Positions 7,685-32,450 of a stretch of 34,506 nucleotides of DNA are shown here, in pieces. Below the pieces are notes generated by a model. It was not told the DNA's origin. It saw nothing but the letters and a program-made list of their open reading frames with translations, and searched no databases. Within the stretch, counting starts at the first letter, position 1, and each line of letters begins with the position of its first letter. Position numbers and translations under genes: made by a program. Origin of the DNA: a virus; UHGV virus genome UHGV-0828925. The stretch is one strand, 5' to 3'.

Positions 7685-7690
7685 TAACCA

Positions 7691-7716
7691 GAGGGAGCTT
7701 CGGCTCCCTTTTCTAT
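7691..7716 (+). terminator. Rho-independent terminator after coat gene
   Basis: GAGGGAGC-TTCG-GCTCCCTT hairpin followed by TTTCTATT immediately 3' of the coat stop codon. Confidence 0.7.
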
Positions 7717-7727
7717 TGGAGATACCA

Positions 7728-15438: not shown

Positions 15439-15460
15439 CACTGTAAGCCAAGGACGGCAT

Positions 15461-15955
15461 TTATTTTATAGTTTTTATGAATTCTTTATTAAATCCCTTC
15501 GCTTCTCCGGGGTATCTTCCGAAGACAATTTTTATAAAAACAGAAAAAATAAAGATAGCAACGCTTAACAACAATTGCAGTATCATTGGAACCCAAAGAA
15601 CTACAGGCTCTATATTCATGAAACCAAATATTCTTCCGGCGATCATGGCGAAGTACCACACTGTTATCAGCAAACTTAGTGGCATATGAATTACTGATAT
15701 TACCAATCCAAGAGCATCAGTAATTCTGTTTTCAAATTTTTCAGGGGAAAACTTTTCTTTAAGGTAATTCAGTGCGCAGGCCTCATTCTCTGGATTTTCA
15801 GCATTTTTCCCTATAGCAATAGAAATCTCAGATATCCTTGATTCAATTCTTTTACGTTTAATAAAACTAGAAAAAAAGAACCACGCAATCTGCAACCCTA
15901 TCCCCAGAAATAGAGTTGCGGCAACTAGCACAGCGTAACTCATAGAATCAGACAC
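15461..15955 (-). CDS. Multi-pass inner-membrane protein, putative superinfection exclusion protein (SieA-like by position)
   Basis: 164 aa with an N-terminal TM helix and 2-3 C-terminal TM helices; AT-rich codon usage; sits between gp16 and mnt where P22 carries sieA. Function inferred from position only. Confidence 0.6.
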
Positions 15956-16037
15956 ACCAACCTCCTTAGTTTTACGCAGGATACCATGATGTCAGTGCAA
16001 GGGGGAGAAAGTCTCCTCATTATCTGATTCGCAATTT

Positions 16038-16073
16038 ACGTGCATATTTAAATATTGCACGTTACAACGTGCA
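16038..16073. promoter_or_regulatory. Overlapping palindromes in the divergent intergenic region (candidate operator/promoter)
   Basis: TGCATATTTAAATATTGCA (near-palindrome) overlapping TGCACGTT-AC-AACGTGCA (8-bp inverted repeat), between the divergent membrane-protein gene and the 16109 gene. Confidence 0.5.
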
Positions 16074-16108
16074 TGTGTATGATTGACTTATCAATCACAA
16101 CACGAGAT

Positions 16109-17122
16109 ATGCTCATGAAAAATGATGATGTTAGTGGGAAGGCCAAAGGCGGTAAGGCACGCGCGGCAAAAATGACAGCAGAGCAAAGAAAAGAATCCTC
16201 AAGAAAGGCTGTTGCCGCAAAAAAAGAAAAAGCTTTATTGCCCGTATCTGCGAATGAGGGAAAGTTAAAGATCGGTGATGCGGAATTAGATGTCGCGGTT
16301 CTCGAAAATGGACGGCGTATCATATCACAAGCTTCTGTTTTTAAAGCATTTGGCCGACCACAAAGAGGGGGTAGAGCACCTCAAGAAGAGGGGGTGATCA
16401 ATATGCCCGCTTTTATGGATGCTGCAAACCTTAAAAAATATATAAATCAAGATGTTATGGATGTGATCAATAAGGTCAAATACAAGACGATTACTGGCTC
16501 CGTCCAGGAAGGTTATGACGCATCCATAATACCTCTTGTCTGCGATGTTTATTTAAAGGCAAGAGAGGCAGGCGCTATCACCAGGCCAAACCAGTTAGAG
16601 ACAGCCAAGAAAGCTGAAATTCTGGTGCGCTCATTAGCTAAAGTCGGAATAATAGCGCTTGTTGATGAAGCGACGGGGTACCAGCGAGATAGAGAAAAAG
16701 ATGCACTCGCCAAAATACTCGAGGCCTTTGTCGCAAAGGAAATTCAACCTTATATTACAACATTTCCTGCTGATTATTATGAAGAGCTTTTCAGGTTAAG
16801 GGGCTTAGAATACCCGCCGGAAAATCCCCGCTTCCGGCCTCAGTATTTTGGCGTTTTGACAAATGATATCGTCTACAAGAGATTGGCACCAAACATCCTT
16901 GAGGAGCTTAAAAAGCAGAACGTAAAGGCCTCAAAAGGTACAAAGTTGTTTCAGGGGCTGACGCCAAATATTGGATATCAAAAATTAAGAGAGCATCTGT
17001 CATCAACCGTTACGATTATGAAGCTATCTAACGACTATTCAGATTTTATTGCAAAAATGAATCGCCTGCATCCAAGGTTTGAGGATGTGAAAACAGACGA
17101 ACTGGATGATTCAGACAAGTAA
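16109..17122 (+). CDS. Hypothetical protein with highly basic Lys/Ala-rich N-terminal tail (accessory gene)
   Basis: About 337 aa; N-terminal 60 residues K/A/R-rich (GKAKGGKARAAKMTAEQRKESSRKAVAAKKEK); AT-rich; start ambiguous between the ATGs at 16109 and 16115. Confidence 0.7.
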   Translation: MLMKNDDVSGKAKGGKARAAKMTAEQRKESSRKAVAAKKEKALLPVSANEGKLKIGDAELDVAVLENGRRIISQASVFKAFGRPQRGGRAPQEEGVINMPAFMDAANLKKYINQDVMDVINKVKYKTITGSVQEGYDASIIPLVCDVYLKAREAGAITRPNQLETAKKAEILVRSLAKVGIIALVDEATGYQRDREKDALAKILEAFVAKEIQPYITTFPADYYEELFRLRGLEYPPENPRFRPQYFGVLTNDIVYKRLAPNILEELKKQNVKASKGTKLFQGLTPNIGYQKLREHLSSTVTIMKLSNDYSDFIAKMNRLHPRFEDVKTDELDDSDK

Positions 17123-17126
17123 CAGT

Positions 17127-17150
17127 AACCCACCTTCAGGTGGGTTTTTT
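17127..17150 (+). terminator. Rho-independent terminator between convergent genes
   Basis: AACCCACC-TTCA-GGTGGGTT followed by TTTT; overlaps the mnt stop codon on the opposite strand. Confidence 0.7.
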
Positions 17151-17387
17151 GTACAAATCCTTCAGCGTATCAAACACCATCTTCTTAACAAGCTCTGACT
17201 GCTCATCAGCGAGTCGTTCTGCATCGTCGCGATAGCCTGCAATCGGTGATGGTTTTGATAGCGCATCCTGAACGATTTGTAATAACTCTGAGTTCATTGA
17301 CCTTCCGTTAGCCTCTGCTCTTAATTTCAATTTTTCTCTTACTTCCAAAGGCATACGGAAGTTAAAGTGCGGATCGTCTCTAGCCAT
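17136..17387 (-). CDS. mnt: Mnt repressor (ribbon-helix-helix)
   Basis: 83 aa MARDDPHFNFRMPLEVREKLKLRAEANGRSMNSELLQIVQDAL..., near-identical to my recollection of P22 Mnt. Confidence 0.9.
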   Translation of the reverse strand: MARDDPHFNFRMPLEVREKLKLRAEANGRSMNSELLQIVQDALSKPSPIAGYRDDAERLADEQSELVKKMVFDTLKDLYKKPT

Positions 17388-17410
17388 GCCATCACTCCAA
17401 GTTAGTATCT

Positions 17411-17674
17411 CTAACTTTCGTCTTTATTGTTGCTATACATGCATTTCAACTTCTCAACATCATGTTCAAGATCTATCAATCGTGATGCTATAGTTGCAAG
17501 GTCTAGTGCTTGAATGTGTTTATTTTTTTCGGTCCATGCTTCAAGTGCCGCGACCATCTCAGCATTTAATGAACGAGAATTAGCCTCAGCCAGTTCAATA
17601 AGACGTTCCTTTATCTCTACAGGAAGCCTCAGATTCACTTGAGGGTTTTTGTACTTACGATCAGACATCGGCAC
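17411..17674 (-). CDS. Second ribbon-helix-helix (Arc/Mnt-family) DNA-binding protein
   Basis: 87 aa; N-terminal NLRLPVEIKERLIELAEANSRSLNAEMVAALE matches the RHH beta-strand/helix pattern; upstream of and co-oriented with mnt. Confidence 0.75.
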   Translation of the reverse strand: MPMSDRKYKNPQVNLRLPVEIKERLIELAEANSRSLNAEMVAALEAWTEKNKHIQALDLATIASRLIDLEHDVEKLKCMYSNNKDES

Positions 17675-17704
17675 ATCCTGAATAATTTTTTACCACAGGA
17701 TATG

Positions 17705-17743
17705 TAGGTATCTATTGACTATCAATGCGTACCTAAATACTAT
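17705..17743 (+). promoter_or_regulatory. Rightward Pant-like promoter with overlapping inverted repeat (candidate Arc/Mnt operator)
   Basis: -35 TTGACT (17715..17720), 17-bp spacer, -10 TACTAT (17738..17743); TAGGTA...TACCTA inverted repeat spans the -35. Confidence 0.55.
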
Positions 17744-17773
17744 GTATGCGTACCACATACAACGGAGGATGCA

Positions 17774-17914
17774 ATGAAGGTAAAAACACTGCGTATGCCA
17801 GAGAAGTTAGAAAAAATCCTTGAAGAGAAAGCAAAGGAAGAGTGTCGCTCATTTAGTGCAGAAGTAATTAAACGGGTGATGGACAGCCTGAAGAGAGAGG
17901 GGATAACGGTATGA
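17774..17914 (+). CDS. arc: Arc-like ribbon-helix-helix repressor
   Basis: 46 aa MKVKTLRMPEKLEKILEEKAKEECRSFSAEVIKRVMDSLKREGITV; GGAGG SD 5 nt upstream; same architecture as P22 Arc; stop overlaps next ATG (ATGA). Below the 60-aa track threshold, found by reading. Confidence 0.7.
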   Translation: MKVKTLRMPEKLEKILEEKAKEECRSFSAEVIKRVMDSLKREGITV

Positions 17915-18114
17915 GTAAAGAATGTTGTTTCTGCGGCATTAGCGAATCAGACGCTGATCAAACATACATTTACTCTAAAGAAACAGGTCGGATGCTGTGT
18001 AGTGACTGCGTGTTGGACATCATAAGATACAAGCATCTTGGATGTTCTGCCAGCATTAGCAATATAGGTGAAGTATATGAAGGGAAAGATATAACTGATA
18101 GAGCAGAAAGTTGA
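17911..18114 (+). CDS. Small Cys-rich protein (possible zinc ribbon)
   Basis: 67 aa with CCFC...CSDC spacing (two Cys pairs); translationally coupled to arc. Confidence 0.5.
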   Translation: MSKECCFCGISESDADQTYIYSKETGRMLCSDCVLDIIRYKHLGCSASISNIGEVYEGKDITDRAES

Positions 18115-18176
18115 AGCCCCAACTGCGGTAACAGTCAGGACTTCGGTATCAACAAATCGGATTAGGAAATATTGAC

Positions 18177-19055
18177 ATGAAAAGTATAGCAAAGGCACAA
18201 AACGATTTCACCATCTTCAAATTCGGCGACAGTGAAATCCGCGTCATCAACAAATGCGGTGAGCCGTGGTTTGTAGCAAAAGATGTTTGTGATGCTTTAA
18301 CCCTGACTAACTCACGCAAGGCGCTTACTGCACTTGATGACGATGAAAAGGGAGTAACTTTAAGTTACACCCTTGGTGGTGAGCAGAATCTAAGCATTGT
18401 TAGCGAATCAGGTATGTATACATTGGTTCTGCGCTGCCGCGATGCTGTCAATAAAGGTTCGGTCCCGCACAAATTCCGCAAGTGGGTAACAGCAGAAGTT
18501 CTACCTTCAATTCGCAAACATGGCGAGTATGTGAAAGGCAAGAAAACCACTGTTGAGGAAAGAACGCCGCTACGCGATGCAGTAAACATGCTGGTAGGAA
18601 AGAAAGGACTTCGCTATGACGATGCATACAATATGGTTCATCAGCGTTTTGGTATTGACAGCATTGATGAACTTTCAATTGAACAAATCCCGCAAGCCGT
18701 AGAGTACATCCACAGGGTAGTGCTTGAAGGCGAATTCATCGGCAAACAAGAGAAGAAAACCGACGAGCTTTCTGCAAAAGAAGCAAACAGCCTTGTATGG
18801 TTATGGGATTATGCCAATCGTTCACAGGCATTATTCCGCGAACTGTATCCGGCATTAAAACAAATTCAATCGAACTATTCCGGCAGATGCTACGACTATG
18901 GTCATGAATTCTCGTATGTTATCGGAATGGCGAGAGACGTTTTAATCAATCACACACGAGATGTTGATATCAATGAGCCAGACGGACCAACGAATCTTTC
19001 CGCATGGATGAGACTTAAGAATAAAGAATTACCTCCTTCAGTACATAACTACTGA
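18177..19055 (+). CDS. ant: Antirepressor with Bro-N-type N-terminal domain
   Basis: 292 aa; N-terminal [30 protein letters not shown]... resembles the Bro-N domain; occupies the ant position after arc. Confidence 0.75.
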
Positions 19056-19074
19056 CAGATAACCAACGCAACGA

Positions 19075-19098
19075 CCCAGCTTCGGCTGGGTTTTTTAT
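19075..19098 (+). terminator. Rho-independent terminator after ant
   Basis: ACCCAGC-TTCG-GCTGGGT followed by TTTTTT. Confidence 0.8.
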
Positions 19099-19108
19099 GC
19101 CCAAAATT

Positions 19109-19229
19109 CACCGTAGCCACACTTAGGCAATGAGCTTGAAGGAGAGACCTACACAAAAAGTGTAGGTCGAAAAGCGAACAAAATAACTTCCGAAAAAGTT
19201 GTTTTATCACAAAAAACTCACCGTAGCCA
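19109..19229 (+). repeat. Direct repeats TCACCGTAGCCA flanking a hairpin upstream of the tailspike gene
   Basis: AAA(T/C)TCACCGTAGCCA at 19105..19120 and 19213..19229; hairpin ACCTACAC-AAAAA-GTGTAGGT at 19147..19167 between them. Confidence 0.55.
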
Positions 19230-19264
19230 TGCTGCGGCGATTCCTTGTATCTGGAGCAAATTAA

Positions 19265-21286
19265 ATGACAGATTCGATAAATGCCAATGTTGTAGTGAGT
19301 ATGCCTTCGCAACTCTTCACTATGGCGCGTTCTTTTAAAGCCGTAGCCAATGGCAAAATTTATATCGGTAAGATTGACACAGATCCGGTAAATCCAGAAA
19401 ACCAGATTCAGGTTTATGTGGAGAATGAAGACGGTTCTCACGTTCCTGTTTCGCAACCAATCATCATTAATGCTGCTGGATATCCGGTATATAACGGACA
19501 GATTGCCAAGTTCGTAACTGTGCAAGGTCATTCTATGGCTGTGTACGATGCGTATGGGGCGCGGCAGTTCTATTTTCCGAATGTGCTTAAGTATGATCCT
19601 GATCAGTTAAAAAACATTTTACTATCAAAATCTGGAGCATCAAATGTTTTCACGTCTTCTGGTGATAGCGTTCAAACATTTATAGATAACTATGCATTTA
19701 TTTATGCTGTTGATTATTTGCCTGAAAATTACGTTACAGACGGTTCTGTAGACTATCGCGCAGAAATACAAGAAGCAATCAATCATGCAACGAGCATAAA
19801 ATCAGCATTGGTTTTACCTCCATTTCAGTGCAAGATAACTCCGGTAGATCAGTTTGATGTTCCAGGTCTCCTAATCCCATCTAATTCAATAATTATAAAC
19901 CCACCAGGAGGATCGCTTAAGATTGGTGAAAATAGCTTTGAGCAATACGGGGTTATGACATTTTCAGATGTTGAAAATATAATTGTTATAAACCCAGTAT
20001 GCATTGGAGATAAAACAACTCACAAAGGACTGGACGGCGAGTTCGGAATGTGTTTCTTTATCAGGGGTGGGTGTAACAATATAGAAATAAAAAACCCTAA
20101 AGCCATTGATGCATGGGGAGATGGAATTTTTATTGGTCAGCACTGGCCTGATAAGGTCTCATACCCGAAGAAAATAACTATAACCAGACCAGTTACAGAA
20201 AACTGCCGTAGGCAAGGTATTAGCATTACATGTGGAGAGTCCATAGTCATCGATAGGCCAGAATTGAACAACACTGGTGATAGCGATTCAACACCCCTCC
20301 CAAACGGCCCATGGGCTGGAATCGACATAGAACCTAACTATTTTCAGACGCCGTTAAGGGGAATTCACGTCAATGGAGTTATAGGAAAGGGTAATAAAGG
20401 GCCGCTAACTCAAATCGCGCTAAATATGGCAGATACAAACATCCCACCAGAAGGTGGTAGATATGACTGCCAAATCACCATTGACGGGGTTTCTGATGAC
20501 TCATCAAGAGGAGCGTTTGAGTTTTGGGGGGTTCCTAACAGAGATTCTCTTTTTAACGGATACGTTTCAGTTAAGAACGTGTGCTCCAAGGGAGCGCTAA
20601 AAAACCCTATAATGATAAACAACCAATTCTACAAGTCAGGCTTGCGCCTACTAGTAGACAACGTATCAATAAATGATTGGTCTTGCTCATATTCAAGCAA
20701 CATTGATAAGGCCCCTATAGCCATTAAAACATCTGATTCATCACAATATCCATCATCAACACTTCCAGTACAGGGGAACTTTGAAATAAGAGATGTGTCT
20801 CTTAGCTCATCTCTTCCAGCTGAAAGCATATCAAAATATGCAATCGTAACAAACAATGCAAAAGGGTTTGTAGGTGCATATATATCGTTCAAGCATGTAA
20901 TATGTCCAGTAAAGCTAACCACTAACGTTTTTGGTAGGATTAATCTTGATCTAGGTTCATTTTACCAGACTCTAACATGTACAATGAATCCAGGTGAAAC
21001 TTTAAACCTTGCTTCATTATCTGATATTAAGATGAGCGAGCCTGGAGAGATCTCCCTTCCATCATCAATTGATAGCAGATTCAATGGTCAACAATATAGA
21101 TTAATGTATGACTCATCGTCTGGATTTATGAAGATGAATACATCTAGCCTTAACGTATTCGTAAACGGTAAAGCGGTTACTGCCGGATATGCTAATTTTT
21201 ATCCATCAGCAGGTGTAATATCAATAACTGTTGGTGTTAATGGGTTTGTTCTTATAAACACTCAGGGAGGATATACGCCATCATGA
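19265..21286 (+). CDS. gp9: Tailspike protein with P22-type head-binding N-domain and divergent receptor-binding domain
   Basis: 673 aa; first ~110 aa ([14 protein letters not shown]...[25 protein letters not shown]...[15 protein letters not shown]...NVLKYDPDQ) match the P22 gp9 head-binding domain as I recall it; the rest is AT-rich and unlike P22. Confidence 0.85.
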
Positions 21287-21440
21287 TTTTTTGAATTTTA
21301 TCCTATCGCATGCAAGTTAACTGGTTTTAGTAGATTCTCGCCCATGTCGTTATATGTACGCGCGGGTCAGCCAACCACTGCATCATTTCTCTGATTCTAT
21401 CGAGATACTGAGCATGATTGTAAATTCAACTAACCCAGTG

Positions 21441-21485
21441 AGTTGACAAAAAATTAGCGCAAGAGGACAAAAAATCACCTTGCGC
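21441..21485 (-). terminator. tI/sib-like terminator hairpin downstream of attP on the int transcript
   Basis: GCGCAAG...CTTGCGC stem followed on the minus strand by TAATTTTTTGT; corresponds to the lambda sib/tI region as I recall it. Confidence 0.55.
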
Positions 21486-21489
21486 TAAT

Positions 21490-21720
21490 GCTCTGTTACA
21501 GGTCACTAATACTATCTAAGTAGTTGATTCATAGTGACTGGATATGTTGTGTTTTACAGTATTATGCAGTCTATTTTTTAAGCTAAATGCATTATAAGGC
21601 ATTGATATTAATGATTTTACTGTTTCTTGTTCAGCTTCTTTATACTAAGTTGGCATTATAAAAAAGCATTGCTTATCAATTTGTTGCAACGAACAGGTCA
21701 CTATCAGTCAAAATAAAATC
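21490..21720. other. attP: attP (lambda-type) with variant core GCTTCTTTATACTAA at 21634..21648
   Basis: CAGCTTCTTTATACTAAGTTGGCATTATAAAAAAGCATTGCTTATCAATTTGTTGCAACGAACAGGTCACTATCAGTCAAAATAAAATCATTATTTG; arm-type sites (CAGGTCACTAT / GGTCACTATCAGTCA) on both sides. Confidence 0.85.
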
Positions 21721-21721
21721 A

Positions 21722-22792
21722 TTATTTGATTTCAATTTTGTCCCACTCCCTGCCTCTGTCATCACGATACTGTGATGCCATGGTGTCCGACTTATGCCCG
21801 AGAAGATGTTGAGCAAATTTATCGCTTATCTGCTTCTCATAGAGTCTTGCAGACAAACTGCGCAACTCGTGAAAGGTAGGCGGATCCCCTTCGAAGGAAA
21901 GACCTGATGCTTTTCGTGCGCGCATAAAATACCTTGATACTGTGCCGGATGAAAGCGGTTCACGACGAGTAGATGCAATTATGGTTTCTCCGCCAAGAAT
22001 CTCTTTGCATTTATCAAGTGTTTCCTTCATTGATATCCCGAGAGCATCAACATGCAATGTTGTAGGGATGGCAATTTTTACGCCTGTTTTGCTTTGTTCG
22101 ACATAAAGATATCCATCTACGATATCAGACCACTTCATTTCGCATAAATCACCAACTCGCTGCCCGGTAACAACAGCCAGTTCCATTGCAAGTCTGAGCC
22201 AACATGGTGATGATTCTGCTGCTTGATAAATTTTCAGGTATTCGTCAGCCGTAAGTCTTGATCTCCTTACCTCTGATTTTGCTGCGCGAGTGGCAGCGAC
22301 CGGGTTTGTTGTTATATGGCCTTCAGCTATTGCCTCTCGGAATGCATCGCTCAGTGTTGATCTGATTAACTTGGCTGACGCCGCCTTGCCCTCGTCTATG
22401 TATCCATTGAGCATTGCCGCAATTTCTTTTGTGGTGATGTCTTCAAGTGGAGCATCTGGCAGACCCCTCCTTATTGCTTTAATTTTGCTCATGTAATTTA
22501 TGAGTGTCTTCTGCTTGATTCCTCTGCTGGCCAGGATTTTTTCGTAGCGATCAAGCCATGAATGTAACGTAACGGAATTATCACTGTTGATTCTCGCTGT
22601 CAGAGGCTTGTGTTTGTGTCCTGAAAATAACTCAATGTTGGCCTGTATAGCTTCAGTGATTGCGATTCGCCTGTCTCGGCCTAATCCAAACTCTTTACCC
22701 GTCCTTGGGTCCCTGTAGCAGTAATATCCATTGTTTCTTATATAAAGGTTAGGGGGTAAATCCCGGCGCTCATGACTTCGCCTTCTTCCCAT
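21722..22792 (-). CDS. int: Tyrosine integrase (lambda Int-like)
   Basis: 356 aa MGRRRSHERRDLPPNLYIRNNGYYCYRDPRTGKEFGLGRDRRIAITEAIQANIELF...; near-identical to my recollection of lambda Int; adjacent to attP. Confidence 0.95.
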   Translation of the reverse strand: MGRRRSHERRDLPPNLYIRNNGYYCYRDPRTGKEFGLGRDRRIAITEAIQANIELFSGHKHKPLTARINSDNSVTLHSWLDRYEKILASRGIKQKTLINYMSKIKAIRRGLPDAPLEDITTKEIAAMLNGYIDEGKAASAKLIRSTLSDAFREAIAEGHITTNPVAATRAAKSEVRRSRLTADEYLKIYQAAESSPCWLRLAMELAVVTGQRVGDLCEMKWSDIVDGYLYVEQSKTGVKIAIPTTLHVDALGISMKETLDKCKEILGGETIIASTRREPLSSGTVSRYFMRARKASGLSFEGDPPTFHELRSLSARLYEKQISDKFAQHLLGHKSDTMASQYRDDRGREWDKIEIK

Positions 22793-22988
22793 TTCTGATC
22801 CTCTTCAAAAGGCTACCTGTTACTGGTCGATTTAAGTCAACCTTTACCGCTGATTCGTGGAACAGATACTCTCTTCCATCCTTAACCGGAGGAGGGAATA
22901 TCCTGCACTCGCGTACCCATCGACGAACTGTTTCAAGGCTTCTTGGGCGTCGCTGGCGTGCGTTCCACTCCTGAAGTGTCAAGTACAT
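22770..22988 (-). CDS. xis: Excisionase (lambda Xis-like)
   Basis: 72 aa MYLTLQEWNARQRRPRSLETVRRWVRECRIFPPPVKDGREYLFHESAVKVDLNRP...; overlaps int start as in lambda. Confidence 0.9.
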   Translation of the reverse strand: MYLTLQEWNARQRRPRSLETVRRWVRECRIFPPPVKDGREYLFHESAVKVDLNRPVTGSLLKRIRNGKKAKS

Positions 22989-23017: not shown

Positions 23018-23185
23018 AAAACCGCCATCAGGCGGCTTGGTGTTCTTTCAGTTCTTCAATTCGAATATTGGTTACGTCTGCATGTGCTATCTGCGCCCAT
23101 ATCATCCAGTGGTCATAGCAGTCATTGATGTTCTCTGCTTCGATAACTCTGTTGAATGGTTCTCCATTCCATTCACCTGTGACTC
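23018..23185 (-). CDS. Small hypothetical protein downstream of xis (55 aa)
   Basis: Hand-translated MHFRVTGEWNGEPFNRVIEAENINDCYDHWMIWAQIAHADVTNIRIEELKEHQAA; similar-sized ORF follows xis in lambda. Confidence 0.45.
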
Positions 23186-23313
23186 GGAAGTGCATTTATC
23201 ATCTCCATAAAACAAAACTCGCCGTAGCGAGTTCAGATAAAAGAAATCCCCGCGAGTGCGAGGATTGTTATTCATTGCCGATATTCACCTTTATCGCGAA
23301 CACCTTTACCGGT

Positions 23314-23556
23314 TTATCTCCTTTGCATGGCGCGTAATTTTTTCAGATGGTTCTCCTGCTCTGTTTCAGCCAGAATTTGTCGGTATTCCTGGTGATCGAT
23401 CCGTTCAAACAGTTCATTAAAATCGTTTATTTTTACCGACTGTGTTCGCCCATCCATTCTTCTGTACAACACAGTGTTGTTTATGCAGCGAAGAATTTTT
23501 ATCGGGTAGCCGGCGCTATCGGTGTATATCTGACCACGTTGAATCAGAGCGAACAT
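23314..23556 (-). CDS. Hypothetical protein (about 80 aa)
   Basis: ATG with AAGGA SD chosen inside track ORF 23314..23610, whose first codon is TTG. Confidence 0.45.
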   Translation of the reverse strand: MFALIQRGQIYTDSAGYPIKILRCINNTVLYRRMDGRTQSVKINDFNELFERIDHQEYRQILAETEQENHLKKLRAMQRR

Positions 23557-23630
23557 TCCTTTATCCCCAGCGGAAAAGCGAATACAGAATAAATGCCACC
23601 GCGATTGCAACTCCTACAGCGGTGAATGCT

Positions 23631-24815
23631 TCAGGCCAATTCATCATTCACTCCCTGCGGCGGTTCTGGTAGCAGCATCCAGTACAAGGCGTTCCCTAAC
23701 CACGATAAAGTGCCGTCGCTCAACTCCACGTATTCCCCTTGTACCTGTCCTGCCATATACTCGCCGTGCTTTGAATAAATTAAAACCCAATCGTCTTGAG
23801 CGGGAATTCGCTCACTACAGCTTATCCAGGCATCCAGAGTTACCTGAGAATTGCCATTTACCAAGTCAGCTCGAACATATAGCGTGTCATCATGGTGCTG
23901 ATTGTGGCTGCACCACGTTAATTCGCTTAACTCGCCATCTTCTGGCCATACTCCAGCTGTTTGCAGCCAGATATGGGCTGGCGCATCCTGGCAAGGTGTA
24001 TTAACTGGAAACTTGTAAGTTTGGCTTACAGGTTGGCTACCCTGAAGCATGGCAGCGTGGCAGGCATACTCAACGCCCTTAACTGCATCTGCGCAGTAGT
24101 TATAGCGATTGCATTCCACTAATTTCCGTTTGAGTTTTTCAATTGCCTGCGCGACATCAGCCTGTATTACAGGAACTGGCGGAACGGCTGTTTGCTCTCG
24201 AACGTCATTAGTCGCTATCGGTTCTGCTGCCAACTGACTGGCATATTTGTTAATGGTAACGATAAGCTCTTGCTCAGCCTCATCCAGACAATCACCGATA
24301 CCTCGCCTGTCACCGTCAAAATCATCGAAATCGGCACGAATCTTGGCAACCTTCAGGATTGCGGACAACACCTCACTAGGAATTACCGGATAGTTGGTTG
24401 ACGTTTCCGCGATTTCCCGAAAATTATTGGTTGACGAATTCTTATTTTCCCGAAAGTTTCCGGACTGAAGCATGGCGGCGCGGCAGGCGTTCCAGCCATC
24501 TGCGTAACAATCTCTGTGTGTCTTGAAATATGTCACCGCCCTTGGTACATCGTTTACGTCTATTTCATCCGGCACAACCGGCGCAGGTGAGTCAGCATAA
24601 ACAGGAATAACGTCCGGTTGCTCTTTATTGCTTTCATCCGTTAAAGCCCAGAATAATTTCCCGGCCGGATGTTTGAAAATATAAGCAACTGGATCTGCTT
24701 CCAGCGATGCCAGTGCAATTTCATAAGCACGGCGCTCAATATTGTCTCGAACGTCCAAGCTGCCTATGCGCTCTTTGATTTCTTTAATCAGTTCTTTGTC
24801 GGTGAAAGTGGTCAT
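23631..24815 (-). CDS. Hypothetical protein with internal duplication and DUF551-like C-terminal domain
   Basis: 394 aa; two similar Cys-containing segments (DCYADGWNACRAAMLQSG... and NYCADAVKGVEYACHAAMLQGS...); C-terminal W..SERIP...DGTLSWLGNALYWMLLPEPP pattern typical of DUF551 as I recall it. Confidence 0.65.
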   Translation of the reverse strand: MTTFTDKELIKEIKERIGSLDVRDNIERRAYEIALASLEADPVAYIFKHPAGKLFWALTDESNKEQPDVIPVYADSPAPVVPDEIDVNDVPRAVTYFKTHRDCYADGWNACRAAMLQSGNFRENKNSSTNNFREIAETSTNYPVIPSEVLSAILKVAKIRADFDDFDGDRRGIGDCLDEAEQELIVTINKYASQLAAEPIATNDVREQTAVPPVPVIQADVAQAIEKLKRKLVECNRYNYCADAVKGVEYACHAAMLQGSQPVSQTYKFPVNTPCQDAPAHIWLQTAGVWPEDGELSELTWCSHNQHHDDTLYVRADLVNGNSQVTLDAWISCSERIPAQDDWVLIYSKHGEYMAGQVQGEYVELSDGTLSWLGNALYWMLLPEPPQGVNDELA

Positions 24816-25021
24816 TTGTTAATCCTCAAAACTTTATGCCCGGGCGCAAAAGCACGCGTTTTGTCTTTGCTTATTCGCCAGCCATCCTTGCGCGCCTCTT
24901 TTGCACAGCCAGCCCATGACGTACCTATATACTCACCGAAGTCTGGCGACTTATATTTGCCATCTGTACACTGGAGGCAATCACAATAGAGATGCATGGT
25001 GTAACTTGCAGCGATAGCCAT
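24812..25021 (-). CDS. Small Cys-rich hypothetical protein (69 aa)
   Basis: ATG with AAGGAGAG SD inside track ORF 24812..25093; CDC..C motif. Confidence 0.5.
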   Translation of the reverse strand: MAIAASYTMHLYCDCLQCTDGKYKSPDFGEYIGTSWAGCAKEARKDGWRISKDKTRAFAPGHKVLRINK

Positions 25022-25022
25022 A

Positions 25023-25211
25023 TCACTCTCCTTTAGTGCGCAAGTGGTTTTTCCAGCGGTTTTGCGCCGCGCTGGGCTTTTTGCAAAAACCACAATCCAT
25101 CATCCCGTAATATTTCATCAACCCCATCCGTCGGTTGCTGAGTCTCACCCACTGCCAGACGCCAGGAGCGTTTCTACGAACTAACAGAATCTTTGCTTTA
25201 CGGTTTTTCAT
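25023..25211 (-). CDS. Small basic protein, tandem paralog 1 (MKNRKAK...)
   Basis: 62 aa; shares N-terminal MKNRKAK and C-terminal QNR(W/R)K motif with the ORF immediately upstream; DNA-level direct repeat (T/C)TTACGGTTTTTCATC at both starts. Confidence 0.45.
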   Translation of the reverse strand: MKNRKAKILLVRRNAPGVWQWVRLSNRRMGLMKYYGMMDCGFCKKPSAAQNRWKNHLRTKGE

Positions 25212-25556: not shown

Positions 25557-26003
25557 CTACTCACCTCCGTTGATGCGAATGCCTGTTGCAATGCTGTTTA
25601 TGATGCTGTCAGTGCATGGGGTAGAAAGCTGGGCATCTCCAGCAATTTTCATGACATCAACATCTGCATATCGAATACCGAGGTGTATCAGACCGGCTAT
25701 ACCTGACTTAAGCCGAGCATTTTCCATAAACAGATCCTTTGCCCGCTGTTTTTCTGCCTCAAGCTCAACGCGCAACTTCCCTACCGTTAGCGCAATATCC
25801 TCGTTCTCCTGGTCGCGGGATTTGATGTATTGCTGGTTTCTTTCCAGTTCATCCAGCAGTGCCAGCGCGATATCTGGCGAAAAGTGCTTCATAAAATCGT
25901 TAAGCGCATTAATTCGCTGATCGAAGGGCATTACAGGTGCTTCACCAGCAATTTTTGTTTTTTCAGCGATTTCACGAAGCTTTTGATAATCAATCTTGCT
26001 CAC
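25557..26003 (-). CDS. Hypothetical coiled-coil protein
   Basis: 148 aa, charged heptad-rich central region; start overlaps the stop of the upstream gene. Confidence 0.6.
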   Translation of the reverse strand: MSKIDYQKLREIAEKTKIAGEAPVMPFDQRINALNDFMKHFSPDIALALLDELERNQQYIKSRDQENEDIALTVGKLRVELEAEKQRAKDLFMENARLKSGIAGLIHLGIRYADVDVMKIAGDAQLSTPCTDSIINSIATGIRINGGE

Positions 26004-26692
26004 TGGTTGCCTCCTTTGCGAAGCTGTTCAGCAATACTTACGCATATCTCTGCGCCTCTAATCAGCCCCGGAACGTTCTTGTTTGGCCCAACTTCACCAT
26101 CAACAAAATCAATCATCGCGTTACGAGCCATATCCACCCCCTGCGCACGTACTTCAGCCAGGAGAGCGTCGGTGGCTGGGGTTTCGATATTAGGTAGAAG
26201 CGCATAATCGCAAATCGTATCGATCGCAGGATCACAACAGTCATCCTCGTTGCGTGGTCGTTCGCCAACCTTCGTTGACGATTGCATGATGATTCCCCAG
26301 CAAATACTATCGACCTCTTCGCTCCATCCATCGCAAGCATCACCGCGATAGTCGTCGATTGCAGCCTCAGCCGATTCGATAGCTTCCTCAGCAGTTTTGT
26401 GCCATTCGAAATTATGCTCAGAGCCATATGAGAAATATGAATGTCCCGCCTTCAGCCCAGCATTCTCCGCTGCCAGCGCCACGCACTTGGCCTCAAGGTT
26501 ATCAATCGTGATTCCAACAGAACGACACTCCCGCAACGCCGTTTCCAGTTTTGATTCAAGTTCACCGAACTTACGGACAAGATATTCAGCGTTTGTTTCG
26601 TTGACCTTTAAATCTCGTGGGATGCATTTGCCTTTCAGAAATCCATCCATCTCAATTAGTGACATTTGTTTCATTTCTTCCCACTCCGGCAC
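26000..26692 (-). CDS. Hypothetical acidic Cys-containing protein
   Basis: 230 aa ORF in an operon-like arrangement on the minus strand. Confidence 0.6.
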
Positions 26693-27158: not shown

Positions 27159-27707
27159 TTATTTAGCTAACTTTTTCCAGATCGCTGAAACGTATTTGGC
27201 TTGGTGGATGGCATCATCAAGCGCGTTGTGGCGAGTTCCTTTGAATGGCATATCTCGCTTAGGGTCGAATCCTATTACCTTTCCAAGCTCGACGATTGTT
27301 CTTACGTCGCGGTCATTCCACCACTGCCACGGAACTGGCTGCCCTGTCAGCGAATAACTGTTTCGGAGAATAACGCAGTCAAATGATGCTCCATTCCCCC
27401 AAACCTGAACGAATTTGTGGTTAGCGTTCTTTATGATGAATTCAGATAACCATGAAAGAGCCGTTGAAAGCTCCTGAGTGTTGCTGGTTAGCGATTTTCT
27501 GGCTTCTTCACTCTGTTCCAGCCACCATAAAATCGTTGAAGCGTCAGGACGCGCCCGATATCGCATTGATGACTCAAGCGAGATATTTACCGAGAACTCT
27601 TCTCCTGTTTCTCCGGTATTCGGTTCAAAGAATACCGCCCCAATAGAAATAACTGGCGCGTATGGCCCGTTGCCCATTGTTTCAAGGTCAACCATCAAGT
27701 GATTCAT
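27159..27707 (-). CDS. DEDDh-type 3'-5' exonuclease (DnaQ-like)
   Basis: 182 aa; N-terminal MVDLETMG (Exo I D-x-E), later GASFDCVIL and HNALDDAIHQAKY (Exo III H-x4-D) motifs. Confidence 0.75.
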   Translation of the reverse strand: MNHLMVDLETMGNGPYAPVISIGAVFFEPNTGETGEEFSVNISLESSMRYRARPDASTILWWLEQSEEARKSLTSNTQELSTALSWLSEFIIKNANHKFVQVWGNGASFDCVILRNSYSLTGQPVPWQWWNDRDVRTIVELGKVIGFDPKRDMPFKGTRHNALDDAIHQAKYVSAIWKKLAK

Positions 27708-28231: not shown

Positions 28232-28939
28232 TTATGCCGCCTGTTTTAGTTCGTTAACTCTGATGTTCATTACCTGAACGCATTTAGCCTGCGCCTCCTC
28301 GTTGCCAGCCATTAATTGCCAGTCACGCTGATAACGCTCGATGAGTTTTTCCTTGTCAGTTTCTGTCGATGCATAATCGCTGAAGTCTTTCAGGATTTGT
28401 TCGCAGTCAACCGATGGAGATTTCTGGTTGGTATTTTCTGGTGATGGTTGATTGCCAGATGCTGGCATTGCCCATCCCGGCAGCGATGGAGGGGACCAGT
28501 AAAATCCTGTTCCATCTTTCAGTTTTGCCCTGTGCCATCCCTGCTTTTTATCGAGAGATGTTTGTGCGAAACCTTCCTCAAGGTTATACAGATACCGACC
28601 GATTCCCCACTGAACGGCAGCGCGCTTCATTGCACCGGAACGACCACCTTTGACGGCTTCTACCTGCGTGTTTTCAGCAGCATCCCATTTGGTTACCCAT
28701 TCGGAATCAATCTTTATTGATATGCCGCATTCAACGCCGCCGTTGTTGGGAATATCGCGGTATTCATTGCGCCATCCTGCTTTGCCACAAACATCGTCCA
28801 GGCGTTTCATGATTGCCCGGTTCGTTACATAAGCCAGCACCATAGCCCACACTTTGCCATCGCGTGTTTTACCGCTTTGCTGTATTCGCCATTCGATATC
28901 TTCAGGGCTGAATGGCTCATCGAATTTATTCAAATCCAT
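28232..28939 (-). CDS. Single-strand annealing recombinase (Rad52/Sak-like core with Erf-like C-terminal region)
   Basis: 235 aa; ...AMKRAAVQWGIGRYLY motif as in Rad52-family annealing proteins; C-terminal DFSDYASTETDKEKLIERYQRDWQLMAGNEEAQAKCVQVMNIRVNELKQAA resembles the P22 Erf C-terminus as I recall it. Confidence 0.7.
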   Translation of the reverse strand: MDLNKFDEPFSPEDIEWRIQQSGKTRDGKVWAMVLAYVTNRAIMKRLDDVCGKAGWRNEYRDIPNNGGVECGISIKIDSEWVTKWDAAENTQVEAVKGGRSGAMKRAAVQWGIGRYLYNLEEGFAQTSLDKKQGWHRAKLKDGTGFYWSPPSLPGWAMPASGNQPSPENTNQKSPSVDCEQILKDFSDYASTETDKEKLIERYQRDWQLMAGNEEAQAKCVQVMNIRVNELKQAA

Positions 28940-31733: not shown

Positions 31734-32450
31734 TCAAACCAGCCTTAGTTTTGTCTCAATTGCAACGCCTATAATCTTGCAGTTTCCATTGATTGGCACG
31801 AGAGGCCATGCAGGATTAAGCCCCTTGAGGTATTTATTTCCGCCGTCGATTATCAGCTTCTTGAATGTTGCTTCGTTAGAGTCAGAAAGTTTTGCTATGA
31901 CCAAGCTGCCGTTGATCGCCTCCCTTCCGGTATCGAAAAGAACGAATGTTCCCTCTGGAATGCTTAACCCAACCGGTGCCGTCATTGAATCACCTTCCAC
32001 TTTAAGCCAGAACGCATTACCTTGAATATGCGCGTCAGACTCAAGCCAAACATCTATGTCTTTAATGGTGTATGGTTCGCATGCTTCACACCACGAGCCA
32101 GCCTGGATACTGCTTAACACCGGATACCTCTTTCCTGCTCTGTATTCCCCTGCATACCTTACGTTGGCATCGCTCTTAAGGCTTTCTGCCTGTTCTGCAA
32201 CCTTGGCAGCAATTGACTGGCTAAAATCAGCAATTGAGACTTGCAACAATCGTGCAAAACCAGATGCAACCTCAACGTTTAGCGCATTTCTGCCATTAAG
32301 ATAATGCCCTACCGCTCCTTGGGTGATACCCAGTTCATCAGCGATTGAGTATTGGGTTATTCCCAATTCTTTCTTTTTTGACTCATACAAAGCCTTAAGC
32401 CGCTTAGCGTCTTCCAGCTGTTCTGTCGTCAGTGATTTTTTATTTTCCAT
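31734..32450 (-). CDS. cI: CI-type prophage repressor (HTH + S24 LexA-like autocleavage domain)
   Basis: 238 aa; N-terminal LTTEQLEDAKRLKALYESKKKELGITQYSIADELGITQGAVGHYLNG (lambda-cI-like HTH); C-terminal FWLKVEGDSMTAPVGLSIPEGTFVLFD...ATFKKLIIDGGNKYLKGLNP (S24 Ser/Lys dyad region). Confidence 0.92.
   Translation of the reverse strand: MENKKSLTTEQLEDAKRLKALYESKKKELGITQYSIADELGITQGAVGHYLNGRNALNVEVASGFARLLQVSIADFSQSIAAKVAEQAESLKSDANVRYAGEYRAGKRYPVLSSIQAGSWCEACEPYTIKDIDVWLESDAHIQGNAFWLKVEGDSMTAPVGLSIPEGTFVLFDTGREAINGSLVIAKLSDSNEATFKKLIIDGGNKYLKGLNPAWPLVPINGNCKIIGVAIETKLRLV

What the first reader, a model, noticed from the sequence alone, without database searches (positions are those of the whole stretch)
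23631..24815. 394-aa protein with internal duplication and DUF551-like C-terminus next to the integration module
Two related Cys/His-containing segments (...DCYADGWNACRAAMLQSG... and ...NYCADAVKGVEYACHAAMLQGS...) precede a C-terminal region with the W..SERIP...LSWLGNALYWMLLPEPP pattern I recognise as DUF551. The function is unknown and the position (first cargo gene after xis) is a known variable hotspot.
Basis: partly seen in the sequence, partly recalled or inferred. Interest (0 to 1): 0.4.

Follow-up and report, generated by a model that had tools for sequence, protein, structure and literature searches.

The report
Mosaic EaA-type phage accessory protein
This is an ordinary, already catalogued early accessory gene of temperate coliphages with no experimentally shown function. 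It is assembled from interchangeable protein modules, and the supposed internal duplication is only a 24-base splice-like joint at which such modules are swapped between phages.

Summary
The 394-aa ORF (window 23631-24815, minus strand) is real. Its C-terminus is a genuine DUF551 domain (Pfam 35.6 bits, cut-off 22).

The "internal duplication" is not a duplicated domain. The two segments share only ACR/HAAMLQ, encoded by a 24-nt direct repeat that is 22/24 identical. Nothing on either side is similar (p = 0.28 and 0.84).

That 24-mer is a family-wide junction. In viral contigs it sits in 143 distinct contexts whose flanks are at random-level identity. BLAST blocks shared with other phages start or end at it.

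The gene is not the first after xis. Two conserved small ORFs lie between them.

The protein follows the P22 EaA / 933W L0065 plan: an N-terminal helical hairpin, a variable middle and DUF551. P22's nucleotide pyrophosphohydrolase middle is replaced here by helical modules 97% identical to P7 Upf89.5.

Metal binding at the two motifs is not supported, because alternative cassettes lack the cysteines.

The exact protein and about 8,000 homologues are already in databases as "DUF551 domain-containing protein". No function has been shown experimentally.

My best guess is a dispensable early-operon adaptor protein, with its mosaicism driven by phage Rad52-type recombination at junctions about as long as the minimum such recombinases need (23-27 bp).

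The parts
23631..24815 (-). Whole gene: 394-aa EaA-type mosaic protein with C-terminal DUF551 (stop codon included)
   Evidence: ORF. RBS and ATGA overlap with the upstream ORF. Identical ORF called on 4 public contigs. Exact protein P0001 and 7,946 homologues found.
24720..24815 (-). aa 1-32: exchangeable N-terminal cassette, the first helix and turn of a predicted helical hairpin
   Evidence: At least four alternative versions occur in otherwise near-identical proteins. It is 83% identical over aa 1-46 to 933W L0065. BLAST blocks break at nt 95-101. AF2 predicts helices 6-19 and 26-39 at pLDDT 67-83.
24564..24719 (-). aa 33-84: conserved IALASLEA(E/D)PVAY...IPVYA.SPAPVVPDE segment
   Evidence: Nearly invariant in alignment A1. 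Also recognisable in P22 EaA. Found in 62 unique representative variants.
24489..24563 (-). aa 85-109: helix A cassette (VNDVPRAVTYFKTHRDCYADGWN), of the common ...GWN class
   Evidence: Replaced by a Cys-free cassette in P0059, P0078, P0100 and P0108. Predicted helix 91-117 at low confidence. Many alternative ...GWN upstream cassettes exist.
24465..24488 (-). Junction 1: 24-nt GCCTGCCGCGCCGCCATGCTTCAG = ACRAAMLQ (aa 110-117)
   Evidence: Direct repeat D2. 0 expected by chance. BLAST blocks of many phages start at nt 310-333 or consist only of nt 314-355. It is an identity island among 143 contexts.
24393..24464 (-). aa 118-141: Asn/Ser-rich linker containing an 11-aa (33-nt) tandem repeat, NFRENKNSSTN / NFREIAETSTN
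   Evidence: Tandem direct repeat D1 at 24394-24425 / 24427-24458, 75% identical. It is one of several alternative linkers that follow AAMLQ. Low pLDDT.
24168..24392 (-). aa 142-216: central helical module (PSEVLSAILKVAKIRADFDDFDGDRRGIGDCLDEAEQELIVTINKYASQLAAEPI...) plus a Pro-rich spacer
   Evidence: phrog_14306 E 3.9e-39. Nearly invariant in 52 unique representatives that carry different neighbouring modules. 97% identical to P7 Upf89.5. Predicted helices 147-166 and 171-196.
24066..24167 (-). aa 217-250: helix B cassette (...IEKLKRKLVECNRYNYCADAVKGVEY), a minority class without GWN
   Evidence: Predicted helix 214-257. No similarity to helix A outside the junction. The DAVKGVE[YD] class is listed.
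24042..24065 (-). Junction 2: 24-nt GCCTGCCACGCTGCCATGCTTCAG = ACHAAMLQ (aa 251-258)
   Evidence: BLAST blocks of Stx1a phages, ASO78B, ev017, PhiR12_2 and PhiR41_1 end at nt 774-776, the last base of this motif.
24000..24041 (-). aa 259-272: GSQPVSQTYKFPVN linker (the EPVSQTYKL class)
   Evidence: The same linker follows other AAMLQ copies and directly joins the N-terminal hairpin to DUF551 in short relatives such as P0280.
23862..23999 (-). aa 273-318: Cys/His-containing module (TPCQDAPAHIWLQTAGVWPEDGELSELTWCSHNQHHDDTLYVRADL)
   Evidence: Present in 29 unique representative variants. C275, H281, C302 and H307 are retained while H304 and H308 vary. No PHROG or Pfam hit. Not modelled confidently.
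23832..23861 (-). aa 319-328: VNGNSQVTLD linker (the GNSPV(T/I)PD class) that precedes DUF551
   Evidence: Constant N-flank of all DUF551 cassettes.
23655..23831 (-). aa 329-387: DUF551 domain, a predicted six-stranded acidic small beta-barrel

Best explanation
The gene encodes a dispensable early accessory protein of the EaA/DUF551 kind, carried by a P22-like temperate coliphage in its leftward early operon upstream of xis and int. Shown here: the protein is a chain of independently exchangeable modules. In order these are an N-terminal helical hairpin, a conserved IALASLEA...PVVP segment, helix A, a low-complexity linker, a central helical module, helix B, a linker, a 46-aa Cys/His module, a linker and DUF551. 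The modules are joined at a few short junctions conserved across the family. One of them, the 24-nt sequence encoding AC(R/H)AAMLQ, occurs twice, and this is all that the 'internal duplication' amounts to. Also shown: this junction is an island of near-perfect nucleotide identity between unrelated flanks in many phages, and similarity blocks shared with other phages begin or end at it. Inferred: modules are shuffled in frame by homologous recombination at these junctions. The phage's own Rad52-type annealing protein would catalyse this during co-infection or on meeting resident prophages and P1-like phage-plasmids. Inferred, with lower confidence: the protein acts as a non-enzymatic adaptor. 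In this view the helical parts oligomerise or act as spacers, and the acidic Tudor/SH3-like DUF551 barrel binds a host or phage protein, using the face formed by its two conserved terminal motifs (W.SCSERMP and HWMPLPEPP). The effect would be to modulate host physiology or the lysis-lysogeny balance early after infection or induction, as reported for the neighbouring Ea22 family. It is not a duplicated metal-binding protein.
For: Identity and context: the ORF and its neighbours int, xis, phrog_676, DUF4222, target, phrog_926, Ead/Ea22-like, Abc2, exoribonuclease, SSB, Rad52/22 SSAP, gp17 and a CI-like repressor all lie on the minus strand. DUF551 scores above the Pfam cut-off. EaA plan: 933W L0065, annotated 'similar to EaA' and also the third ORF after xis, shares aa 1-46 at 83% plus DUF551. 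P22 EaA consists of the same N-terminal hairpin, PF04447 and DUF551. Mosaicism: P7 Upf89.5 is 97% identical over aa 33-265 only. No phage record covers 80% or more of the gene, although 375 share pieces of it. Alignment A1 shows cassette replacement at aa 1-32, aa 85-113 and inside DUF551. Of 150 representative relatives, 85 carry DUF551, 10 Ead_Ea22 and 3 PF04447. Junction: the 24-nt repeat is 22/24 identical with unrelated flanks. In viral contigs 122 exact copies have 66 different upstream and 71 different downstream neighbours. Of 120 hits to the fully degenerate back-translation, 76 carry the dominant 24-mer, including the rare Leu codon CTT. Mean pairwise identity is 0.27-0.32 in the flanks against 0.94-0.97 in the motif. 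161 and 152 pairs are 85% or more identical on one side only, against 24 similar on both sides. BLAST block ends cluster at nt 95-101, 310-333, 351-355, 436-437, 774-776 and 1010-1013, and some phages share only nt 314-355. Mechanism: the phage encodes a Rad52/22 annealing protein. The minimal efficient pairing segment is 23-27 bp for Red-beta, and intragenic exchanges of about 100 bp are common (PMC3945230). DUF551 fold: AF2 pLDDT 72.9. The best PDB matches are Tudor/Sm/SH3-like barrels and the BFVD matches are DUF551 proteins. Acidity: pI 4.57, net charge -28, and all 26 DUF551 cassettes are acidic.
Confidence: 0.6

Rival explanations
1. One reading: a protein with an internally duplicated Cys/His domain that binds metal, such as zinc, at the two related segments.
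For: H100/C103/C111 and C235/C241/C252/H253 lie near the two motifs. Both segments hit the same PHROG columns. The motif cysteine is frequent among relatives.
Against: Similarity is limited to 8 aa and the flanks are unrelated. Both motifs lie at the end of long predicted helices, where the candidate ligands would be up to about 25 A apart (geometry is my inference). Close homologues replace segment 1 with a Cys-free cassette. Other cassettes have Y, D or R in place of the motif Cys. There is no metal-binding family hit in Pfam or NCBIfam.
Confidence: 0.07
2. An anti-defence or anti-restriction factor: an acidic early protein whose variable DUF551 barrel or helical modules bind and neutralise a host immune protein, with cassette swapping driven by an arms race.
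For: Location in the early operon next to abc2 and gp17. Strong acidity of the protein and of every DUF551 cassette. There are 33 DUF551 cores below 70% identity between constant flanks. The best viral structural match is a protein named restriction alleviation protein Lar that carries a DUF551-like domain. DUF551 is fused to a dATP/dGTP pyrophosphohydrolase in P22 EaA.
Against: No experimental link exists. PADLOC gives no hit, though it covers defence rather than anti-defence. The Lar link rests on a database name. Modules are near-identical across contexts, which points to shuffling of a small pool rather than rapid point-mutational escape. Family-wide it is the termini of DUF551 that are conserved, not the core, which fits a conserved target.
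Confidence: 0.2
3. A lysis-lysogeny modulator equivalent to the Stx-phage Ea22 V2 protein, acting pro-lysogenically through its DUF551 end.
For: Ea22 V2 carries DUF551, and Ea22 proteins favour lysogeny (PMC10834534 and PMC7093339). 10 of 150 representative relatives combine the target's modules with the Ead_Ea22 domain. Pieces of the gene are annotated Ea22 in some phage records.
Against: The target lacks the Ead_Ea22 coiled-coil domain, which is encoded by a separate gene at 25557-26003. There is no similarity to the 933W Ea22-position protein L0069. The lambda Ea22 C-terminal domain alone does not reproduce the phenotype.
Confidence: 0.15
4. A decaying fusion or pseudogene: an accidental in-frame concatenation of fragments with no function of its own.
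For: RefSeq annotates homologous stretches as several partial pseudogenes on some plasmids and chromosomes. The architecture is patchwork-like.
Against: Full-length ORFs of 390-420 aa with the same module order are kept open in over a hundred 90%-identity clusters on many contigs. The start is translationally coupled and has a good RBS. Modules are nearly invariant at the protein level.
Confidence: 0.05

Closest known systems
P22 EaA (NP_059588, 317 aa) and 933W L0065 (AAD25410, 207 aa, 'similar to EaA')
   Same: Same place in the leftward early operon, a few ORFs upstream of xis. Same N-terminal MTT(F/I)T...IALASLEA hairpin: 83% over aa 1-46 with L0065, 28% over 79 aa with P22 EaA. Same GNSPV(I/T)P linker and C-terminal DUF551.
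   Different: P22 EaA carries a PF04447 dATP/dGTP pyrophosphohydrolase domain in the middle, and L0065 a short unrelated middle. The target instead carries about 230 aa of helical modules with two AAMLQ junctions and no recognisable enzyme domain.
P7 Upf89.5 (AAQ07565, 432 aa) of the C1-controlled 'hea' operon of P1-like phage-plasmids
   Same: aa 33-265 are 97% identical (99.4% at DNA level over nt 96-796), including both junctions and the central module.
   Different: Different N-terminal cassette and a different C-terminal part with no DUF551. P1-like plasmids in E. coli do carry versions with DUF551 that cover nt 95-1177 at about 98%.
Ea22 V2 of Shiga-toxin phages (PMC10834534)
   Same: A mosaic exo-xis/ea-region protein ending in DUF551, with acidic C-terminal parts and module sharing with the target's family.
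   Different: Defined by the Ead_Ea22 N-terminal coiled-coil domain, which the target lacks. The window encodes that domain in a separate gene at 25557-26003.
YfdS of cryptic prophage CPS-53 (DUF551 protein)
   Same: Contains DUF551. The only phenotypes reported for the domain family come from it: H2O2 sensitivity of the deletion, and help in suppressing hda-185 together with yfdQR (PMC4776307).
   Different: A short protein in a different gene cluster. No direct sequence comparison was made here.
Tudor / SH3-like / Sm small beta-barrels (e.g. the PHF19 Tudor domain, 6wau)
   Different: No sequence similarity (9-20% identity), no evidence of an aromatic cage, and Foldseek E-values are not significant. 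This is a fold-level resemblance only.
Linker or boundary sequences of the modular theory of lambdoid phage evolution, and relaxed homologous recombination by Rad52-like recombinases (PMC3945230)
   Same: Short conserved sequences of about the minimal pairing length (24-38 nt here, against 23-27 bp for Red-beta) lie between unrelated modules, in phages that encode such recombinases.
   Different: Here the joints lie inside a coding sequence and keep the reading frame, so protein modules rather than genes are exchanged. That the joints are used by the recombinase is inferred, not shown.

Membership tests
DUF551 (Pfam PF04448) | Whole-protein score above Pfam's gathering threshold with a full-length match to the profile | tested here: met
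   35.6 bits against a cut-off of 22, E 1.8e-8, aa 329-387 on profile 1-68/68. 75 bits against a profile of 26 enterobacterial cassettes.
DUF551 (Pfam PF04448) | Terminal motifs W..(S/A)CSE(R)xP and (H)W(M)xLP.PP flanking a poorly conserved core | tested here: met
   WISCSERIP at aa 330-338 and YWMLLPEPP at aa 378-386. The window copy has I for M and L for P at two positions.
DUF551 (Pfam PF04448) | Small all-beta fold shared with other DUF551 proteins | tested here: met
   AF2 model with six strands, pLDDT 72.9. BFVD matches to proteins named DUF551, E 1.5e-4 to 1e-2, TM up to 0.76.
EaA of P22-like and lambdoid phages | N-terminal MTT.T...IALASL(E/D)AE helical hairpin | tested here: met
   83% identity over aa 1-46 with 933W L0065. 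28% over 79 aa with P22 EaA, E 0.002.
EaA of P22-like and lambdoid phages | Position in the early-left operon between the ead/Ea22-like genes and xis | tested here: met
   Gene order in the window compared with P22 and 933W.
EaA of P22-like and lambdoid phages | Central dATP/dGTP pyrophosphohydrolase domain (PF04447), as in P22 EaA itself | tested here: not met
   No PF04447 hit in the target at E <= 0.1. Present in P22 EaA at E 1.2e-49. Only 3 of 150 representative relatives have it, so it is not universal in proteins annotated EaA.
Ead/Ea22 family (Pfam PF13935) | Ead_Ea22 N-terminal and coiled-coil domain | tested here: not met
   No hit in the target. The neighbouring gene 25557-26003 has it, E 5.1e-23.
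Internally duplicated domain protein | Significant similarity between two segments beyond a short motif | tested here: not met
   Whole-protein self-alignment z 1.6-1.8. Flanks of the motif p = 0.28 and 0.84. DNA identity collapses outside the 24 nt.
Zinc- or metal-binding Cys/His module | A set of three or four ligand residues conserved in all homologues of the segment | tested here: not met
   At the two motif segments there are Cys-free alternative cassettes and Y/D/R substitutions, and no zinc-finger family hit.
Zinc- or metal-binding Cys/His module | The same feature, for the separate aa 273-318 module (C275, H281, C302, H307) | tested here: inconclusive
   The four residues are kept in 28-29 of 29 variants while H304 and H308 vary. 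The module is at least 78% identical throughout, so this does not discriminate. The AF2 model there is unreliable.
Tudor / SH3-like small beta-barrels | Significant structural similarity and a ligand-binding aromatic cage | tested here: inconclusive
Known anti-phage defence systems (PADLOC) | Match to a defence-system protein model | tested here: not met
   0 families for the target and its close neighbours.

The most novel reading that the evidence does not exclude
The 24-nt AC(R/H)AAMLQ-coding island may be a maintained in-frame recombination joint, together with its sister junctions (IALASLEA, GNSPV(I/T)PDGW.SCSERMP, HWMPLPEPPQ and the EPVSQTYKL and NFRE..STN linkers). On this reading the joints let Rad52-type phage recombinases shuffle protein modules among ea-region genes of lambdoid, P22-like and P1-like phages. 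That would be a natural domain-shuffling grammar producing combinatorial accessory proteins. The conserved sequence would then persist because it is a crossover site, not only because of what it encodes.
Probability: 0.4. Interest if true: 0.55.

Novelty: new member of a known kind. Interest (0 to 1): 0.3.

Why it matters
As a gene it matters little. It is one more mosaic member of a very common family of phage proteins of unknown function, and the identical protein is already in public databases. Two by-products are more useful. First, it gives a clean, quantifiable example of intragenic module exchange at a joint of about the minimal length that Red-beta-type recombinases need. This bears on the old question of whether phage mosaicism arises at conserved linkers or by illegitimate recombination followed by selection, and it can be tested directly by recoding the joint. 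Second, it shows that DUF551, a domain present in thousands of enterobacterial prophage genes, is predicted to be a small acidic Tudor/SH3-like barrel with conserved termini and a freely exchangeable core. That narrows the search for its partner. The analysis also explains why annotation pipelines break these genes into 'partial' pseudogenes.

Tried and rejected
- Whole-protein self-alignment with shuffles was not significant, so I moved to the DNA level and to profile hits.
- Sequence searches of PDB with the protein and with a DUF551 profile found nothing usable: 0 hits, and one chance hit at E 5.6.
- Full-length AF2 on 65 close homologues gave pLDDT 43.7 and was not used beyond secondary structure.
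- NCBIfam and PADLOC gave no meaningful hits.
- The AFDB fold library was unavailable.
- Literature searches for AAMLQ, for EaA with pyrophosphohydrolase, and for boundary sequences in lambdoid phages found nothing on this motif or protein. The IbfA/UAB_Phi20 and Gifsy-1 papers only mention eaA in passing.
- EF-hand reading of DFDDFDGDRRG: by eye it does not fit the canonical loop spacing, and I did not pursue it.
- DGR-type hypervariation of DUF551: rejected on inspection, because the cassettes differ in length and throughout the core rather than at template-directed positions.
- A second DUF551 gene in the window as an intragenomic recombination partner: none was found.
- DUF551 flanks as exact DNA joints like the 24-mer: only partly so. 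Median pairwise identity is 0.74-0.82 in the flanks against 0.56 in the cores.
- I ran no further search on the short motif, because an 11-aa profile cannot reach significance in that database.
Full report
**1. What is there**

The window is a P22-like temperate coliphage genome. Its best DNA matches are phages JEP4, Gally, HZ41 and HF4s, each covering at most 30% of a 20-kb query.

The following genes all lie on the minus strand:
- a lambda-type integrase (21722-22792)
- an excisionase (22770-22988)
- a 55-aa ORF (23028-23195, phrog_676)
- a DUF4222 ORF (23314-23610)
- the target (23631-24815)
- a small Cys-rich ORF (phrog_926)
- an Ead/Ea22-like gene (25557-26003)
- a 230-aa ORF
- abc2
- an Rv2179c-like exoribonuclease
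- SSB
- a Rad52/22-family annealing protein (28232-28939)
- gp17
- a CI-like repressor (31734-32450)

The target therefore lies deep in the leftward early operon. It is the third ORF upstream of xis, not the first.

Its ATG overlaps the stop of the preceding ORF (ATGA) and has a GAGGA 7 nt upstream. The identical 394-aa ORF is called by other pipelines on four metagenome contigs, in prophages integrated next to a pectinesterase gene.

**2. Check of the observation**

Both quoted strings are present, at aa 102 and aa 239. The C-terminus is DUF551: PF04448, aa 329-387, 35.6 bits against a gathering score of 22.

The internal duplication holds only in a narrow sense. Self-alignment of the protein is not significant (z 1.6-1.8; 32-44 of 500 shuffles reach the score).

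At the DNA level there is a 24-nt direct repeat, GCCTGCC(G/A)CGC(C/T)GCCATGCTTCAG, at 24465-24488 and 24042-24065. It is 22/24 identical and encodes ACRAAMLQ and ACHAAMLQ. None is expected by chance in the window.

Identity collapses immediately outside these 24 nt. The 44 residues before and after the motif are unrelated (p = 0.28 and 0.84), whereas 60-aa segments that include the motif give p = 0.008.

Both segments hit the same columns of phrog_12449, which fits a shared short motif. A second, unremarked repeat is a 33-nt tandem (24394-24458) encoding NFRENKNSSTN/NFREIAETSTN in the linker after the first motif.

**3. The gene is a patchwork**

The exact protein is on record (P0001). 7,946 of 8,000 scored candidates are homologous, and those that carry a name are named 'DUF551 domain-containing protein'. 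They come from E. coli and Salmonella, often on contigs of about 90-100 kb.

No phage record covers 80% of the gene, although 375 share pieces of it. Ten E. coli genomes cover at least 80%, and the best matches are P1-like plasmids that cover nt 95-1177 at about 98%. P7 Upf89.5 is 97% identical over aa 33-265 and unrelated at both ends.

An alignment of 65 homologues (81-98% identical to the window protein) shows cassette replacement at three places:
- aa 1-32, with at least four versions
- aa 85-113, where a cysteine-free alternative still joins at AMLQ
- inside DUF551

A search of 1.84 billion cluster representatives gives 1,888 hits. Their matched stretches begin and end repeatedly near aa 30, 85, 117, 137, 216, 250-260, 270, 317-325, 339, 366 and 388.

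Individual modules are almost invariant across proteins that differ elsewhere. This holds for aa 40-86, aa 137-216 and aa 273-318.

Among 150 representatives, 85 contain DUF551, 10 the Ead_Ea22 domain and 3 the dATP/dGTP pyrophosphohydrolase domain. The target's modules therefore belong to a pool shared by genes annotated EaA and Ea22.

**4. The 'repeat' is a family-wide junction**

In the representatives, many different helices join to AAML(Q/H), for example ...DGWNACR...VRGWNACR...GVEYACH...GIERSD and ...IQKLR. After the motif comes one of several alternative linkers: SGNFRENKNS, G(A/S)(E/Q)PVSQTYK, GDEPVTDNTN, GADGTLTNEG and others. They occur in mixed combinations.

An exact scan of viral contigs for the 24-mer returned 122 copies. 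These have 66 different upstream and 71 different downstream neighbours, in 93 combinations.

A scan with the fully degenerate back-translation of ACRAAMLQ returned 120 stretches. Of these, 76 were already found with the near-exact pattern and 44 differ at one to three synonymous sites. The dominant form uses CTT, a rare leucine codon in E. coli (the rarity is from my own knowledge).

Over 143 distinct contexts, mean pairwise nucleotide identity behaves as follows:
- 0.27-0.32 in the flanks
- 0.57 in the 12 nt before the motif (the GWN codons)
- 0.94-0.97 in the motif, which I estimate would be about 0.77 from the pattern constraint alone
- 0.40 in the next 12 nt, then back to background

In the same set, 161 pairs are at least 85% identical upstream but unrelated downstream. 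152 pairs show the reverse, and only 24 pairs are similar on both sides.

Megablast blocks shared with other phages point the same way:
- starts at nt 1, 96-97, 310-333, 420, 628-634 and 961-974
- ends at nt 101-129, 351-355, 436-437, 611-649, 774-776, 796, 1010-1013 and 1162-1177

Junction 1 is nt 328-351 and junction 2 is nt 751-774. The Stx1a phages, ASO78B, ev017 and others share exactly nt 315-776, that is, from one junction to the other. Three phages (Stx1a_NIID112183, ENT1 and mEp213) share nothing with the gene except nt 314-355, at 97-100% identity.

**5. How the mosaic most likely arises (inferred)**

The phage encodes a Rad52/22-family annealing protein. De Paepe et al. (PMC3945230) showed that Rad52-like phage recombinases drive mosaic formation between diverged sequences. 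They give a minimal efficient pairing segment of 23-27 bp for Red-beta and 31-34 bp for RecA, and they noted frequent intragenic exchanges of about 100 bp.

Islands of 24-38 nt of near-perfect identity between unrelated, in-frame flanks are what such a process would use and preserve. I did not observe recombination. An RNA-level or translational role for the motif is not excluded, since some database ORFs start at its Met.

**6. Architecture and family**

933W L0065 is annotated 'similar to EaA' and is also the third ORF after xis. It shares aa 1-46 at 83% identity and ends in DUF551.

P22 EaA has the same N-terminal hairpin, a ...IPLYAAPPVP segment, a PF04447 pyrophosphohydrolase domain, the GNSPVIP linker and DUF551. 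Short relatives such as P0280 consist only of the hairpin, an EPVSQTYKL linker and DUF551.

The target is thus an expanded EaA-type protein whose middle is non-enzymatic. It is not a member of the Ead/Ea22 family, because that domain is in a separate neighbouring gene.

**7. DUF551**

Among the proteins gathered, 33 cassettes below 70% identity lie between constant flanks, NSPV(T/I)PDGW(I/V)(S/A)CSERMP and THWMPLP(E/A)(P/A)PQ. At the DNA level the flanks show median pairwise identity of 0.74-0.82, against 0.56 for the cores.

Against viral models the best matches are proteins named DUF551. One is a 225-aa phiRSL1 protein named restriction alleviation protein Lar (E 1.5e-4, TMq 0.76).

The whole protein is acidic (pI 4.57, net charge -28), and every one of 26 DUF551 cassettes is acidic. 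This argues against direct nucleic-acid binding and for a protein partner (inference).

The first strand (WIS) and last strand (YWML) carry the family's conserved motifs. I infer, without coordinates to check it, that they form the conserved functional face and that the core is freely exchangeable.

**8. Metal binding**

The two motif segments lie at the ends of predicted long helices 91-117 and 214-257, at low confidence. Their cysteines are dispensable in alternative cassettes, and no metal-binding family is hit. I therefore reject this reading for these segments.

A separate module, aa 273-318, keeps C275, H281, C302 and H307 in 28-29 of 29 variants while H304 and H308 vary. This is suggestive, but the module is at least 78% identical throughout, so it remains open.

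**9. Function**

Nothing experimental exists for this protein. The literature on the domain is thin. DUF551 is described as a portable domain present in Ea22 V2 of Stx phages and in YfdS (PMC10834534). Deletion of yfdS gives H2O2 sensitivity, and either yfdS or yfdT is needed together with yfdQR to suppress hda-185 (PMC4776307). Ea22 proteins favour lysogeny (PMC7093339).

My committed reading is a dispensable early adaptor protein. Helical modules would serve for self-association or spacing, and the DUF551 barrel would bind a protein partner, so as to modulate host physiology or the developmental decision.

Rival probabilities:
- anti-defence factor: 0.2
- Ea22-like pro-lysogenic factor: 0.15
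- metal-binding duplicated domain: 0.07
- junk fusion: 0.05

**10. Verdict**

The gene is a new combination of known modules in a known, abundant family of unknown function, so I file it as a new member of a known kind. Overall interest is low to moderate.

The most interesting residue is the sharply bounded 24-nt junction of minimal-pairing length. It offers a directly testable case of in-frame module shuffling.

Noticed in passing
window 24394-24458 (- strand, aa 120-141): A 33-nt tandem repeat (75% identical) encodes NFRENKNSSTN / NFREIAETSTN in the linker after the first junction. Relatives carry one or two copies, so copy number varies.
   Followed up: partly
window 24812-25021 (- strand; listed as 24812-25093): A 69-aa Cys-rich ORF (phrog_926, E 3.7e-36, no Pfam) is translationally coupled to the target by an ATGA overlap. 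Other pipelines call it as 69 aa. Function unknown.
   Followed up: partly
window 23862-23999 (- strand, aa 273-318): A 46-aa module keeps C275, H281, C302 and H307 in essentially all variants while the neighbouring H304 and H308 vary. This could be a C-x5-H-x20-C-x4-H metal site. It has no family hit and no confident model.
   Followed up: partly
window 23019-23266 (- strand): Three terminator-like hairpins (23266-23245, 23234-23215, 23038-23019) lie between the DUF4222 gene, the 55-aa phrog_676 ORF and xis, inside what should be one early-left transcript.
   Followed up: no
window 25557-26692 (- strand): The Ead/Ea22-like gene and the adjacent 230-aa ORF each hit many different PHROGs over different stretches. 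They appear to be mosaics of the same kind as the target.
   Followed up: no
window 27159-27707 (- strand): An Rv2179c-like 3'-5' exoribonuclease gene (E 5e-73) sits between SSB and abc2, next to a Rad52/22-type annealing protein. P22 itself has abc1 and erf at this position.
   Followed up: no
P0271, P0274, P0358 (database proteins); corresponds to window 24465-24479 and 24042-24056: Some database ORFs begin exactly at the Met of the AAMLQ motif (MLQS...). These could be truncated gene copies or a hint of an internal translation start inside the conserved 24-mer.
   Followed up: no
L001 (NZ_CP021729 plasmid) 3240-4082; L003 (NZ_CP044313) 3001-4002: RefSeq annotation breaks stretches homologous to this gene into several 'partial, missing N- and C-terminus' pseudogenes. 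Whether this is real decay or a side effect of family-based annotation of mosaic proteins was not checked.
   Followed up: no
L171 and L172 (metagenome contigs), 6029-8517: Prophages encoding the identical protein are integrated, via the lambda-type integrase, next to a pectinesterase-family gene and an aconitase gene. From memory this looks like the attB-lambda neighbourhood.
   Followed up: no
window about 15000-22000: G+C falls to 0.38-0.43 across the tailspike and attachment-site region, against about 0.50 in the rest of the window. This suggests a separately acquired block.
   Followed up: no
BFVD entry B2ZXW8 (Ralstonia phage phiRSL1): The best viral structural match of the DUF551 model is a 225-aa protein named restriction alleviation protein Lar. 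A Lar-family gene also lies in the ea region of an E. coli prophage (L003 1069-1302). This is a name-level hint of a link between DUF551 and anti-restriction.
   Followed up: no
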